A stretch of 64,000 nucleotides of DNA from Eledone cirrhosa (taxonomy: Eukaryota), in the NCBI GenBank assembly GCA_964016885.1, contig OZ024742.1, forward strand, positions 221,774,001 through 221,838,000, in the 5' to 3' direction. The number at the start of each line of letters is the position of its first letter. Positions within the stretch are counted from its first letter, which is position 1. Shown here in pieces: positions 45,792 to 59,995 of the stretch. The notes beneath the pieces were generated by a model. The model was not told the DNA's origin, ran no database searches, and worked only from the letters and a program-made list of their open reading frames with translations. A program made the position numbers and the translations under genes.

Positions 45792-46194
45792 GAGATGACC
45801 CCTTAGCCTTTGTCAAGGCAGAATTCTAGGAGAAGGAAAACCCTGATATAACACCTGCAAGCCTGATGGTATCCAATGATGTTGACTTGTTCTTCTTTTT
45901 GGTAAATATCATCTTGGTTAAGAGAGTGGGACTGGCTTTGTGCAGTGCCTTTGCTCATTATAAAAGCTTCACAGCACAGGCATTGCTTTATATCTGGAGA
46001 TCTCTCTGCACTTGTCACATGGTACCATGGGCCCAGAACTATGTGTCAATAATTGTCACAAGTGTAGTGTTTGTACCAGAGTTTTCAAGTCGCTGGCTGG
46101 ACTAAAAAGCCACACTAGTTCAGCGCATCGGTAGGGGTTCTCCTGCATGAATATAAAATAGTAGCCGTACTCGAAAACGAGTTGGCAGCCAACA
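45792..46194 (+). mobile_element. 5'-truncated non-autonomous RTE derivative (plus a 3'-tip-only copy at 46311-46346)
   Basis: Matches 52817-53222; begins directly after (TATG)n. Confidence 0.85.
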
Positions 46195-46391
46195 TATATA
46201 TGTATACATATATGTATATCTCCTTATAATATATAACCAGCAATTTCTCTGTCTGTCTGTCCGACAGTGGAAACACGTGCGCGCGTGGTTGCTATCTCTC
46301 TCTCTCCAGCTAGTGGCCGTACTCGAAAACGAGTTGGCAGCCACCATGTATGTATGTATGTATGTATGTATGTGTGTATGTATCTATGTGT

Positions 46392-47400
46392 ATGGTAAAC
46401 GACTTGGAGTGGTTGATCAGTTTGTCTACCTGGGAAGCACTCTCAATCGATACAGCAACCTTGATAGTGAAATCTCACTTAGGATTAGGAAAGCAAGTGA
46501 TGCTTTCGGAAAGCTAGAAAGGCGACTCTGGGGTCGGCGAGACATATGCAAGAAGACAAAGGTAAAGGTGTACAAGGCATGTGTGCTCTCTTCTTTATGC
46601 CTGCGAGACCTGGGTCACATATCGACACCACCTTAAGCAATTGGAGCGTTTCCATCAGCTGTGTCTCAGACGGATCCATGGCGTTCACTGGACGGACCAC
46701 ATCAGTGATATCGAGATTTTGGAAAGCTCTATGTGTGACAGTATAGAAGCTCTTGTGCTTAAGCAACGACTCCGTTGGAGTGGTCACCTTGCCAGGATGA
46801 AGGATTCTAGAATACCAAAACAACTCTTTTATGGAGAGTTAGTTAAAGAAAAACGACCGCCACATAAACCAAAAAAGAGGTATAAGGATTCCTTGAAAGC
46901 CTCTTTGAAAGACGCTAACATCTCTGCTGATACATGGGAAAATATTGCTGCTGATCGTAATAAATGGAGAAAGACTGTATATGAGGGAAAAGTTGCCTTT
47001 GAGGCATCTCGAATCGCATACGAGAAAGTAAAGCGGGATGTGAGGAAGGGCATTGCTGTTGCACTTCCAGACAGAGAGGGTCCTCTTATGGTGCTGACAT
47101 GCAGCGTCTGTGCGAGACTCTGCCTAAGCAAAGCTGGACTCGAAAGTCATCTTCGCAGTCATAAAGTAAGACCAGTGGTTGACTACCAGGCTGCTGTTGG
47201 AGATGCTACTCATCATGCTTGCCAAGCATGTGGTAGAGAATGTAAATCAGCAGGAGGGCTCAAGCGACATGCAAAAGTACATGAACTCCAACCACAGCCG
47301 ACTATTCCCAGTGATATGTTTTGGTTGCCGACTCTGTGCAAGACATTTTAGATCATTGGCTGGGCTAAAAAGCCACATTCGATCGCAGCGCTGTTAGTTG
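46392..47400 (+). mobile_element. RTE LINE 3' part with three C2H2 zinc fingers; 3' tip displaced to 52398-52452
   Basis: FVYLGSTL, LLYACETW, LRWSGHLARM..IPKQLFYGEL, CSVC..GLESH, CQAC..GLKRH, CRLC..GLKSH; the short copy at 54017-54272 shows the continuous 3' end. Confidence 0.88.
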
Positions 47401-47652
47401 CTATCGTGTGTGTGTGTGTGTATAGATATGTGTATGTGTGTGCGTGTGTGTGTATACATATATGTATATGTATATTATTATTGTTGTTGTTGTCGTTATT
47501 ATTATTGTTGTTATTATTATTATTGTTATTAATATATATGTATATATGTATATATATATATATATATATATATATATATATATATATATATATATATATA
47601 TATATATATATATATATATATATATATATATATATATATATATATATATATA

Positions 47653-57090: not shown

Positions 57091-57218
57091 TGTATGTATG
57101 TATGTACGTACGCACGTATGTATGTATATATGTATGTATGTATGTATGTATCTATACATATATGTATGTATGTTTGTATGTATGTACGTACATACGTATG
57201 TATGTATGTATGTATGTA

Positions 57219-58157
57219 TATTATCTTTCTCTTAATTTCGAGTATATTTATTTGACCGCCTCCTTCCTGGTGGCAAGGTTGTAAAAGAAAAGAAATTGTC
57301 ATCCCTTGAATCGCAAGAATGTTTTGCAAATTTTGAACGTGCCAGCTTTCGCAGCCATTTGTAGACTATGAATTAGGGAGCTGCGCTCTTTGTCCGCAAA
57401 TCCAAGTTCAGTTATACATTGGTCCAAGCGGGTTGGTATGTAACCCGTACCTCCAATAATGATGGGTATGAAGCTGAAGGTGTATCTTGGATACTGGATT
57501 TGTAAATTCCTCGTCACTGGTCCGTAGATGTCCTCCTCCTTCTGTATTTTTCTGACAACGTTTACATCAAGTGCGCAGCTGATCTCCACAACAGAACACG
57601 TTTTCAATGTGTGGTCCCAAACAACAATATCAGGCCGGTTGTGCTTTAATTTGGTGGTAGTTTTTATTTTCAGGTTCCACCAGTATTCCTTAGTGCCATC
57701 TGTCTCAATATGTATGTATGTATGTATGTATGTATGTATGTATGTATGTATGTATGTATGTATGTATGTATGTATGTATGTATGTATATATGTATGTATG
57801 TATGTATGTATGTATGTATGTATGTACGTATGTATGTATGTATGTATGTATGTACGTACGCACGTATGTATATATGTATGTATGTATGTGCAAAGGCTTT
57901 GTGCAGTGCCTTTGCTCACTATAAAAGCTTCACGGCACAGGCATTGCTTTATATCTGGAGATCTCTCTGCACTTGTCGTCACATGGTACCATTGGCCCAG
58001 CATTATGTGTCAATAATTGTCACAAGTGCAGTGTTTGTACCAGAGTTTTCAAGTCGCTGGCTGGACTAAAAGGTCACACTTGTTCAGCGCATCGGTAGGG
58101 GTTCTCCTACATGGATATAAAGTAGTGGCCGTACTCGAAAACGAGTTGGCAGCCACC
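57219..58157. mobile_element. R4 family 1 3' end (-, 57219-57710), (TATG)n, RTE-derivative 3' half (+, 57895-58157)
   Basis: Homologous to 44463-44960 and 52958-53222. Confidence 0.85.
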
Positions 58158-58941
58158 TTGTATGTATGTATGTATGTATGTATGTATGTATGTATGTATG
58201 TATGTATGTATGTATGTATGTATGTATGTATCTATGTATGTACGTACGCACGTATGTATGTATGTATGTATGTATGTATGTATGTATGTATGTATGTATG
58301 TATGTATGTATGTACGTACGCACGTATGTATGTATGTATGTATGTATGTATGTATGTATGTATGTATGTATGTATCTATACATATATGTATGTATGTTTG
58401 TATGTATGTACGTACGTACGTATATATGTATGTATGCATGCATGCATGTATGTATGTATATATGTGTCTATGTGTGTATGTACGTACGTATGTATGTATG
58501 CATGTATACATGTATGCATGCATGCATGTATGTATGCATGTACGTACGTATGTATGTATGTATGTGTGCATGTATACATGTATGTATGATCTACGTACAT
58601 ATGTATGTGTGTATGTACGTATGTATGTATGCATGTATGTATGTAGGTACGTAAGCACGCACGCATGTATGTACGTACGTATGTATGTGTGCATGCATGT
58701 ATGTATCTACGTACGTATGTATGTGTGTATGTATGTATGTATGTATGTATGTATGTATGTATGTATGTATGTATGTATGTATGTGTGTATGTATGTATGC
58801 ATGTATGTGTGATTGTATGTATGCATGTATGTATGTACGTACGTACGCACGCACGCATGTATGTACGTACGTATGCATGTATGTACGTACGTATGCATGT
58901 ATGTATGTATGTATGTATGTATGTATGTATGTATGTATGCA
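58158..58941. repeat. ~780-bp compound (TATG)n array with TACG/CATG variants
   Basis: Direct inspection. Confidence 0.95.
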
Positions 58942-59995
58942 TGTCTCATGGTCGGGTCGTTGGCGACTAAACTGGCAACCCCACCAAGGTTTCTTGGTGA
59001 GGAGGGTGACTTTGGACATCCTGCAGGACTAAAAACAAAACCTGTCAAAGGGCAAAGGAGCTCTTAAGAGTCAATGGCCATCCAAAATCACTGGGAGAGA
59101 TGACCCCTTAGCCTTTGTCAAGGCAGAATTCTAGGAGAAGGAAAACTCTGATATAACACCTGCAACCCTGATGGTATCCAATGATGTTGACTTGTTCTTC
59201 TTTTTGGTAAATATCATCTTGGTTAAGAGAGTGGGACTGGCTTTGTGCAGTGCCTTTGCTCACTATAAAAGCTTCACGGCACAGGCATTGCTTTATATCT
59301 GGAGATCTCTCTGCACTTGTCGTCACATGGTACCATGGGCCCAGCACTATGTGTCAATGATTGTCACAAGTGTAGTGTTTGTACCAGAGTTTTCAAGTCG
59401 CTGGCTGGACTAAAAAGTCACACTCGTTCAGCGCATCGGTAGGGGTTCTCCTACATGGATATAAAGTAGTGGCCGTACTCGAAGACGAGTTGGCAGCCAC
59501 CATGTATATATATATATGTATGTATATATGTATGTATATATATATGTATGTATGTATGTATGTATATGTATGTATATGTATCACCGGGAGAGATGACCCC
59601 TTAGCCTTTGTCAAGGCAGAATTCTAGGAGAAGGAAAGCTCTGATATAGCACCTGCAACCCTGATGGTATCCAATGATGTTGACTTGTTCTTCTTTTTGG
59701 TAAATATCATCTTGGTTAAGAGAGTGGGACTGGCTTTGTGCAGTGCCTTTGCTCACTATAAAAGCTTTACGGCACAGGCATTGCTTTATATCTGGAGATC
59801 TCTCTGCACTTGTCGTCACATGGTACCATGGGCCCAGCACTATGTGTCAATCATTGTCACAGGTGTAGTGTTTGTACTAGAGTTTTCAAGTCGCTGGCTG
59901 GACTGAAAAGTCACACTCGTTCAGCGCATCGGTAGGGGTTCTCCTACATGGATATAAAGTAGTGGCCGTACTCGAAAACGAGTTGGCAGCCACCA
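58942..59995 (+). mobile_element. Two further head-to-tail RTE-derivative copies (58942-59502, 59581-59995)
   Basis: Different 5' truncation points, same 3' end; each is preceded and followed by TATG-type repeats. Confidence 0.88.

What the first reader, a model, noticed from the sequence alone, without database searches (positions are those of the whole stretch)
45792..59995. Head-to-tail trains of a non-autonomous RTE derivative inside the (TATG)n arrays that match its own tail
Seen: eight copies (45792, 46311, 52615, 53385, 56828, 57895, 58942, 59581), all on the + strand with the same 3' end GGCAGCCA-(TGTA)n. 5' truncation points differ, except the 56828/57895 pair, which is one duplication. 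All but the tiny 46311 tip start directly after a TATG array. The element joins an RTE-type 5' UTR to the last C2H2 finger and 3' UTR of an RTE LINE. Known: RTE elements end in short tandem repeats and give rise to bipartite non-autonomous derivatives. Inference: tail-target homology directs insertion, so each copy creates the landing site for the next. This would be a self-reinforcing microsatellite/retroposon system.
Basis: partly seen in the sequence, partly recalled or inferred. Interest (0 to 1): 0.75.

Follow-up and report, generated by a model that had tools for sequence, protein, structure and literature searches.

The report
Retroposon that targets TATG repeats
A short parasitic jumping gene with over 22,000 copies sits mostly in TATG and TA repeats, and in TATG repeats it almost always faces one way; it likely lands in repeats that were already there rather than building them with its own tail, which is unusually choosy for its family.

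Summary
The eight copies are real. They belong to a ~608-bp non-autonomous RTE derivative with at least 22,566 copies in this 3.0-Gb genome.

Targeting holds genome-wide. 69 of 98 sampled copies have TATG upstream on the same strand, against 1.3% background. 3' junctions read ATGTATGTAT 8,645 times, ATATATATAT 7,623 times and the reverse phase 5 times.

The (TGTA)n 'tail' is mostly target. It mirrors the 5' flank, 10-16-bp target duplications start right at the element's end, and the variable tail is only (CCA/CAT)1-3. Most TATG tracts have no RTE end before them (45 of 48), and upstream copies are not older. Window copies form no clade; one pair is a local duplication.

Best reading: a trans-mobilised RTE passenger with polar preference for existing ATGT repeats; target duplication likely regenerates the site. 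Autonomous RTEs behave the same way, and R4/Dong-like LINEs use these arrays on the other strand. This scan found that co-tenancy before on other DNA of this genome. New variant of a known kind.

The parts
52615..53222 (+). Full-length copy of the non-autonomous RTE derivative (reference copy)
52615..52804 (+). ~190-nt head shared with two sister non-autonomous families; origin not found; no tRNA, Rfam family or HDV-like fold detected
52805..53011 (+). RTE 5'-UTR-derived part (68% to the autonomous RTE of L077/L080); contains the conserved CTAGGAGAAGG motif of RTE 5' UTRs and Ceph-SINEs
53091..53162 (+). Remnant of the last C2H2 finger and stop codon of an RTE ORF
   Evidence: 41% aa, E 7e-4, in another copy
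53190..53222 (+). 3' stem-loop and short CCA end, 85% identical to the autonomous RTE 3' end
   Evidence: z -2.8
53385..53990 (+). Full-length copy
45792..46194 (+). 5'-truncated copy (203-608), followed by a TA-rich tract
46311..46346 (+). 3' tip (573-608), no array upstream
56828..57090 (+). Truncated copy (345-608), first member of a local duplication
57895..58158 (+). Truncated copy (345-608), second member of the duplication
58942..59502 (+). Truncated copy (48-608)
59580..59995 (+). Truncated copy (193-608)
45715..45791 (+). (TATG)n target array between an R4-like LINE and copy 45792
52452..52614 (+). (TATG)n array between the RTE LINE 3' end and copy 52615
53222..53384 (+). (TATG)n array between the two full-length copies
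56712..56822 (+). (TATG)n array (duplicated with 57709-57889)
57090..57219 (+). (TATG)n array between a copy and an R4-like 3' end
57709..57889 (+). (TATG)n array
58159..58941 (+). 784-bp degenerate (TATG)n array
59503..59579 (+). Mixed TA/TATG array
46382..47654 (+). 5'-truncated autonomous-type RTE LINE (ORF end with zinc fingers, microsatellite 3' UTR), inserted after a TATG array; continues at 52370
52370..52456 (+). Extreme 3' end of the same RTE LINE copy, cut off by a 4.7-kb insertion; starts the 52.4-54.3-kb train
54013..54276 (+). Second RTE LINE 3' fragment, same strand, after the array behind copy 53385
44461..45720 (-). R4/Dong-like LINE (family A), opposite strand, arrays on both sides
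   Evidence: clade read from recalled CCHC/RHD/PD motifs
54961..56515 (-). R4/Dong-like LINE (family B), opposite strand
   Evidence: weak R2 match, E 0.25
56516..56712 (-). R4-like family A fragment, part of the duplication
57214..57711 (-). R4-like family A 3' fragment, part of the duplication

Best explanation
The eight copies are a non-coding RTE-derived retroposon that sits with fixed polarity in ATGT/ATAT repeats, and it is likely copied in trans by a co-resident RTE LINE whose enzyme likely nicks the ACAT strand of arrays that were already there. Priming likely needs only the 2-3 nt of AT/ATG homology given by the short (CCA/CAT)n tail. Repair duplicates about 10-16 bp of target, so array is left on both sides and the site can be reused; the tract behind each copy is target, not tail. 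Repeated one-way hits on a limited set of long arrays, plus some local duplication, give head-to-tail trains. Shown: anatomy, copy number, target bias, polarity, target duplications, independence of most window copies. Inferred: which LINE mobilises it, that the endonuclease sets the specificity, and that the arrays pre-existed.
For: Copy number: 22,566 exact 32-nt 3' ends. Upstream flanks: of 105 sampled copies, 7 rearranged ones were set aside; 73 of 98 have an RY tract upstream (background 8.2%), 69 have TATG>=2 (1.3%), 44 have (TATG)3 (0.27%), 1 has CATA>=2 and none has (CATA)3. Junctions ATGT: ATAT: ATAC = 8,645: 7,623: 5, about 3.8, 0.084 and 0.002 per 1,000 sites. The 3' tract mirrors its own 5' flank (cosine 0.695 vs 0.529+-0.022 in 5,000 permutations; G content rho 0.56, n=64); informative duplications 8 vs 0.4 expected. 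In 168 copies, 8 of 19 informative flank matches start at the first base after the element, vs 1.0 expected. Variable tail unit: an extra CAT in 18 of 100 listed RTE/sister ends (counted by eye) and an extra CCA in 2 of 105 copies. Tract type shows no signal on the tree (16 changes vs 14.7+-1.5). Only 3 of 48 TATG tract rows and 1 of 423 (TA)8 tracts in 400 kb follow an RTE end. Intact ~1,180-aa APE+RT RTE ORFs exist, 93-98% identical in DNA, and share the 3' hairpin. A second RTE family ends the same way in the same arrays (L200).
Against: No LINE with both of the element's ends was found (0 of 105 sampled 3' ends; 0 of 30 loci read from 569 matches), so the mobiliser is inferred. The graded preference also fits RNA-DNA pairing with G-T wobble. 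11 of the 19 informative matches start 11-57 nt downstream; several lie in arrays whose motif recurs, but an added tail is not excluded there. Neighbours are commoner than independent hits predict (19 of 105 downstream, 16 of 105 upstream, against a rough 3-5%), which leaves room for feedback or duplication. The tree is star-like (4 of 84 branches supported), so the tree and age tests are weak. The flank sample comes from the first 23 Mb of one contig. No empty site was seen.
Confidence: 0.65

Rival explanations
1. Read-through guide: transcripts run into the donor's downstream array, the (AUGU)n RNA anneals to the nicked target, and reverse transcription starts at the element's fixed 3' end. 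Homology selects the site but no tail is left.
For: Per-site ranking of about 1,700: 40: 1 for ATGT: ATAT: ATAC follows 0, 1 and 2 wobble pairs per 4 nt (inference). No poly(A) tail is seen. Tail-target pairing is proposed for RTEs (PMC6007223, Discussion).
Against: 7,623 TA junctions begin with no ATGT unit, so priming would have to use a single register. Tract type is not inherited along the tree (weak). Complex targets share only AT/ATG with the repeat.
Confidence: 0.18
2. One reading: each copy deposits a (TGTA)n tail that expands and becomes the next target, so the element builds its arrays.
For: 57 of 105 copies are followed by ATGT. Excess of neighbours. RTE tails do create microsatellites in Lepidoptera (PMC2887409, passages).
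Against: 40 of 105 are followed by ATAT. None of 7 copies with a unique 5' flank has (TGTA)>=2 (read by eye). Duplications abut the element. 45 of 48 TATG tract rows lack an RTE end. The upstream copy is the more diverged in only 15 of 40 pairs.
Confidence: 0.08
3. The trains come mainly from local tandem duplication or unequal exchange between arrays.
For: The 56828/57895 pair is a local duplication. An earlier unreviewed note (e1-8894651) reads a 25-kb array this way.
Against: The 7 window copies need 7 changes on the tree (shuffled mean 6.8) and share no private variants. Only 1 of 40 adjacent pairs share a truncation point. It cannot explain genome-wide flank bias or polarity.
Confidence: 0.06
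4. Insertion is broad, and copies survive in repeats by selection, or the arrays arise after insertion.
For: About a quarter of clean 5' junctions are not RY tracts (25 of 98).
Against: Selection should not be strand-specific at 8,645:5. Copies are young (mean 1.8% from the majority letter).
Confidence: 0.03

Closest known systems
Bipartite non-autonomous RTE derivatives (Bov-A, RTESINE1/2, MAR4, WALLSI3, RTE-N2_Lch; Kojima 2018, PMC5786205; parts 1-2 of 5, passages and supplement passages seen)
   Same: RTE 5'-UTR piece joined to an RTE 3' end, no long ORF, no tRNA head, the conserved CTAGGAGAAGG domain, short repeat tail.
   Different: Keeps a zinc-finger remnant; has a ~190-nt head of unknown origin shared by three families with three different RTE 3' ends; strong polar microsatellite targeting, which the passages I read do not report; exact parent LINE not found.
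Microsatellite-targeting non-LTR elements: Waldo (ACAY), Mino (AC), Kibi (TC), Koshi (TTC), Dong (TAA) (Grandi and An 2013, PMC3812793; passages seen)
   Same: Insertion into pre-existing microsatellites, attributed mainly to the endonuclease; Waldo's ACAY includes the same repeat (ACAT = ATGT).
   Different: None of those listed is RTE clade (the term RTE has 0 occurrences in that review). Here the specificity is looser (TA and mixed RY tracts are used too) and is seen in a non-autonomous passenger.
RTE insertion signature and 3' microsatellite/TSD correlation (Nishiyama and Ohshima 2018, PMC6007223, abstract and Discussion read; PMC13295347, abstract only)
   Same: The first bases of the target duplication match the short 3' repeat; one to several bp of 3' microhomology.
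   Different: Their signature is a T stretch about 10 nt upstream, not a microsatellite; polarity within arrays and trains are not described in what I read.
Lepidopteran RTEs that generate microsatellites (Tay et al. 2010, PMC2887409; passages seen)
   Same: RTE 3' ends flanked by simple repeats.
   Different: [quoted passage not shown]
RTE-2_OV of Octopus vulgaris (PMC9115989; passages seen)
   Same: Single ORF with endonuclease, RT and C2H2 finger, and a microsatellite starting at the ORF end, like the autonomous RTE here.
   Different: No sequence comparison was made; ORF 1,109 aa there, about 1,180 here; no target specificity is mentioned in the passages seen. That this genome is an octopus is my inference.

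Membership tests
Bipartite non-autonomous RTE derivative | 5' part derived from an RTE 5' UTR | tested here: met
   Positions 191-397 are 68% identical to the 5' UTR of L077 and L080 (E 1e-18 and 2e-20); motif shared with RTE/Ceph-SINE alignments
Bipartite non-autonomous RTE derivative | 3' part derived from an RTE 3' end with a short repeat tail | tested here: met
   Zinc-finger remnant 68%, last 33 nt 85%; CCA/CAT tail
Bipartite non-autonomous RTE derivative | No coding capacity; multicopy with 5' truncations and target duplications | tested here: met
   No long frame inside the element; 45 of 105 full length, the rest truncated; duplications of 9-16 bp
Bipartite non-autonomous RTE derivative | Both parts come from one identifiable LINE, and the 5' end is that LINE's 5' end | tested here: inconclusive
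   Parent not found; the head 1-190 is absent from two RTE 5' UTRs and was seen only on non-autonomous families
tRNA-headed SINE (such as Ceph-SINE) | tRNA- or other Pol III RNA-derived head | tested here: not met
   ARAGORN found no gene; no Rfam match at gathering score
Microsatellite-specific non-LTR element (Waldo/Dong type) | Insertion into one repeat in one orientation, repeat on both sides | tested here: met
   relaxed, since TA and mixed tracts are also used
Microsatellite-specific non-LTR element (Waldo/Dong type) | Sequence-specific cleavage by the element's endonuclease | not testable with these tools
   Needs a cleavage assay
Microsatellite-generating RTE (Tay 2010 type) | Repeat lies between the element and the target duplication | tested here: not met
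   Duplications start at the first base after the element in 8 of 19 informative matches and none start at 1-10 nt; 11 later matches are ambiguous
RTE with HDV-like 5' ribozyme | HDV-like double pseudoknot at the 5' end | tested here: inconclusive
   My own descriptor found none in 5 of 5 non-autonomous heads; hits in the two LINE UTRs were matched by 19-20 of 20 shuffles; no positive control

The most novel reading that the evidence does not exclude
An RTE lineage uses the microsatellite it sits in as a guide. Read-through (AUGU)n RNA from a donor pairs with the nicked ACAT strand, explains the roughly 1,700 : 40 : 1 ranking by wobble pairing, is not copied, and each target duplication renews the site. 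Copies in arrays would then beget copies in arrays, while R4/Dong LINEs fill the same arrays from the other strand.
Probability: 0.2. Interest if true: 0.75.

Novelty: new variant of a known kind. Interest (0 to 1): 0.42.

Why it matters
RTE LINEs are described as not sequence-specific and as makers of microsatellites (PMC2887409). Here at least two autonomous RTE families and three passenger families instead appear to be polar colonists of ATGT/AT repeats, a target known for the unrelated Waldo elements. Tens of thousands of young junctions and intact ORFs make an old question testable: does the endonuclease or tail-target pairing choose the site? It also explains why TATG arrays in this genome fill with nested retroelements, which matters for repeat annotation and microsatellite markers. 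It is not a new kind of system.

Tried and rejected
1. Parent LINE hunt: a pattern for the 5'-UTR part not followed by the usual 3' part gave 569 matches. The 30 loci read were indel, deleted or rearranged copies; a recurrent variant was a 7-nt deletion subfamily. Six further loci and a wider cut of one were used only in the pooled scans.
2. Head identity: no tRNA, no Rfam family, folding z only -1.4 to -1.7, no HDV-like fold.
3. Sequencing runs: no RNA holder listed. 18 runs under 16 organism codes hold half or more of the words, but three laid assemblies gave short collapsed contigs at depth 14-50, one with sister-family pieces, and a raw-read run gave 0 reads. This looks like trace DNA and I do not count it as horizontal transfer.
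4. Age polarity in trains: 15 vs 25, p=0.15.
5. R4-like 5' junctions: 39 loci examined with a crude boundary method; many abut CATA arrays, many were unresolved; not counted.
6. Pfam gave no family for the ORFs of the 47.6-52.4-kb insertion and only sub-threshold zf-RVT hits for the R4-like pieces.
7. Rows dropped: 7 of 105 rearranged junctions. My duplicate filter also removed a few real copies with identical ends and pure tracts (e.g. L042, L045, L114), which understates enrichment. The last 7 of the 100 listed matches were not fetched.
8. Literature: searches listed no paper on this element or on microsatellite-targeting RTEs. Repbase and Dfam could not be searched, and the supplements of the octopus repeat papers were not read, so the family may already be catalogued.
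Full report
Observation. BLAST of 52615-53222 against the window returns the eight + strand copies at the stated places, 96-98% identical, and a 68% sister element at 7067-7506 on the minus strand. Seven copies follow a TATG array. The end is GGCAGCCA-CCA-T, and not every copy has a (TGTA)n run behind it. 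The junction shared by 56828 and 57895 occurs twice in the genome, both here, and the flanking R4-like piece is duplicated with it. That pair is one insertion plus a local duplication.

Anatomy. I fetched five autonomous RTE copies with open frames of 1,206-1,276 codons. One was scanned and has endonuclease, RT and C2H2 domains. Element positions 191-397 match the 5' UTR at 68% in the two copies where it aligned, 486-548 match the last finger at 68%, and 576-608 match the 3' end at 85%. The CTAGGAGAAGG motif is the conserved RTE 5'-UTR domain of Kojima's supplement. The 3' end folds as a hairpin. Positions 1-190 are shared with two sister non-autonomous families. One sister ends like the main RTE, and the other ends like a second RTE family found in L200. 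The head is not tRNA-like and has no Rfam match. A LINE carrying both of this element's ends was not found, so mobilisation by a co-resident RTE is inferred from the shared hairpin.

Abundance and independence. An exact 32-nt 3' motif occurs 22,566 times. Copies differ from the majority letter by 1.8% on average (88 rows). The seven longer window copies need seven changes on the tree (shuffled mean 6.8) and share no private variants. The tree is star-like, so this shows absence of a clade only weakly. Only 1 of 40 adjacent pairs share a truncation point.

Targeting. I took 93 of the first 100 listed matches on contig C1 plus their neighbours: 105 copies, of which 7 with rearranged 5' junctions were set aside. 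Upstream, 73 of 98 have an alternating purine-pyrimidine tract, against 8.2% in 40 evenly spread 10-kb stretches. 69 have two or more TATG in 20 nt (1.3%), 44 have (TATG)3 within 40 nt (0.27%), 18 have (TA)6 (6.4%), and none has (CATA)3. Genome-wide, the 3' end is followed by ATGTATGTAT 8,645 times, ATATATATAT 7,623 times and ATACATACAT 5 times. Scaled by site abundance from 400 kb, this is about 3.8, 0.084 and 0.002 per 1,000 sites (rough).

Tail or target. The tract behind a copy resembles the tract in front of the same copy more than shuffled pairs do (0.695 vs 0.529+-0.022). Eight copies show duplications with non-repeat letters, such as the 10-bp one in L109 and the 12-bp one in L034, against 0.4 expected. 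Among 168 copies from all loci then held, 19 had an informative match between flanks. Eight start at the first base after the element (1.0 expected) and none at 1-10 nt. Eleven start 11-57 nt later, mostly in arrays whose motif recurs, and these are ambiguous. Seven copies with unique 5' flanks have TA, ATGC or no tract, never (TGTA)>=2 (by eye). The unit that varies in number is CAT or CCA (18 of 100 by eye; 2 of 105). Tract type does not follow the tree. Full-length copies are preceded by TATG in 35 of 45 cases, TTATG in 9 of them, so the 5' end may also carry ATG homology (inference).

Self-reinforcement. In 400 kb, 3 of 48 TATG tract rows (4 by eye) and 1 of 423 (TA)8 tracts follow an RTE-type end, so most arrays were not built by these tails. 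The upstream member of a pair is the more diverged in 15 of 40, where the tail model expects a majority. Yet 19 of 105 copies have a same-strand copy next downstream and 16 of 105 upstream. I estimate 3-5% from independent hits. Long arrays being favoured, site renewal by target duplication, and local duplication could each add to this; I cannot separate them.

Neighbours. The 52.4-54.3-kb train starts at the 3' end of an RTE LINE (46382-47654 plus 52370-52456, split by a 4.7-kb insertion) and ends with another RTE fragment. The autonomous RTE/sister 3' end (5,029 matches to a padded pattern) shows the same ATGT/ATAT junctions. Two LINE families on the minus strand, read as R4/Dong-like from recalled motifs and weak hits, end in (CATA)n on their own strand (1,454 and 1,662 matches). 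About 30 of 100 listed ends of one family face an RTE-type end across a few repeat units (by eye). Earlier unreviewed notes of this scan report the same co-tenancy elsewhere in this genome; I had reached my reading before seeing them.

Comparison and verdict. It works like Waldo or Dong, colonists of existing microsatellites (PMC3812793), and by anatomy it is a bipartite RTE derivative (PMC5786205), with the single-parent criterion untested. Short tail-target homology is known for RTEs (PMC6007223). Strong polar microsatellite targeting by RTEs was not in the papers my searches listed; Repbase and Dfam were not available. New variant of a known kind; interest 0.42.

Noticed in passing
window 47655-52370: A 4.7-kb insertion in the (TA)n of the RTE 3' UTR, with 792-bp inverted repeats, internal direct repeats and broken minus-strand ORFs with an RT-like YRDD motif; looks Penelope-like (recalled), no Pfam hit.
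   Followed up: partly
window 7012-7520 (-); L020, L071, L146; L070, L230: Two sister non-autonomous families share the ~190-nt head but carry 3' ends of two different autonomous RTE families, suggesting tail swapping under one head. The first hairpin differs by compensatory-looking changes (read by eye).
   Followed up: partly
L200 590-1750: A second autonomous-type RTE family (52% aa to the main one) inserted on the same strand in the array behind an element copy, ending in CCATCATGTATG.
   Followed up: partly
window 44461-45720, 54961-56712, 57214-57711 (-): Two R4/Dong-like LINE families occupy the same arrays on the opposite strand, ending in (CATA)n.
   Followed up: partly
L032, L035, L100, L119, L120: Copies with an inverted 5' part, as in twin priming.
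   Followed up: no
L050: Two copies tail-to-tail across a palindromic (TA)n tract, where both orientations are allowed.
   Followed up: no
element positions 48-54, 149-152, 198-205: 5' truncation points recur among unlinked copies, partly at TGT/ATG, suggesting microhomology with the array at the 5' junction.
   Followed up: no
L191/L193 and L212/L213: Two pairs of loci about 1 Mb apart on C1 are 98.8-99% identical over 5.5 kb: a segmental duplication or assembly duplicate.
   Followed up: no
window 3987-4439, 6300-6886, 9094-10493, 18858-21728: Further LINE-type RT/endonuclease remnants, 27-49% identical to the RTE protein.
   Followed up: no
window 52615-53222 in public runs: Near-identical sequence at low depth in runs under 16 organism codes, probably trace DNA.
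   Followed up: partly
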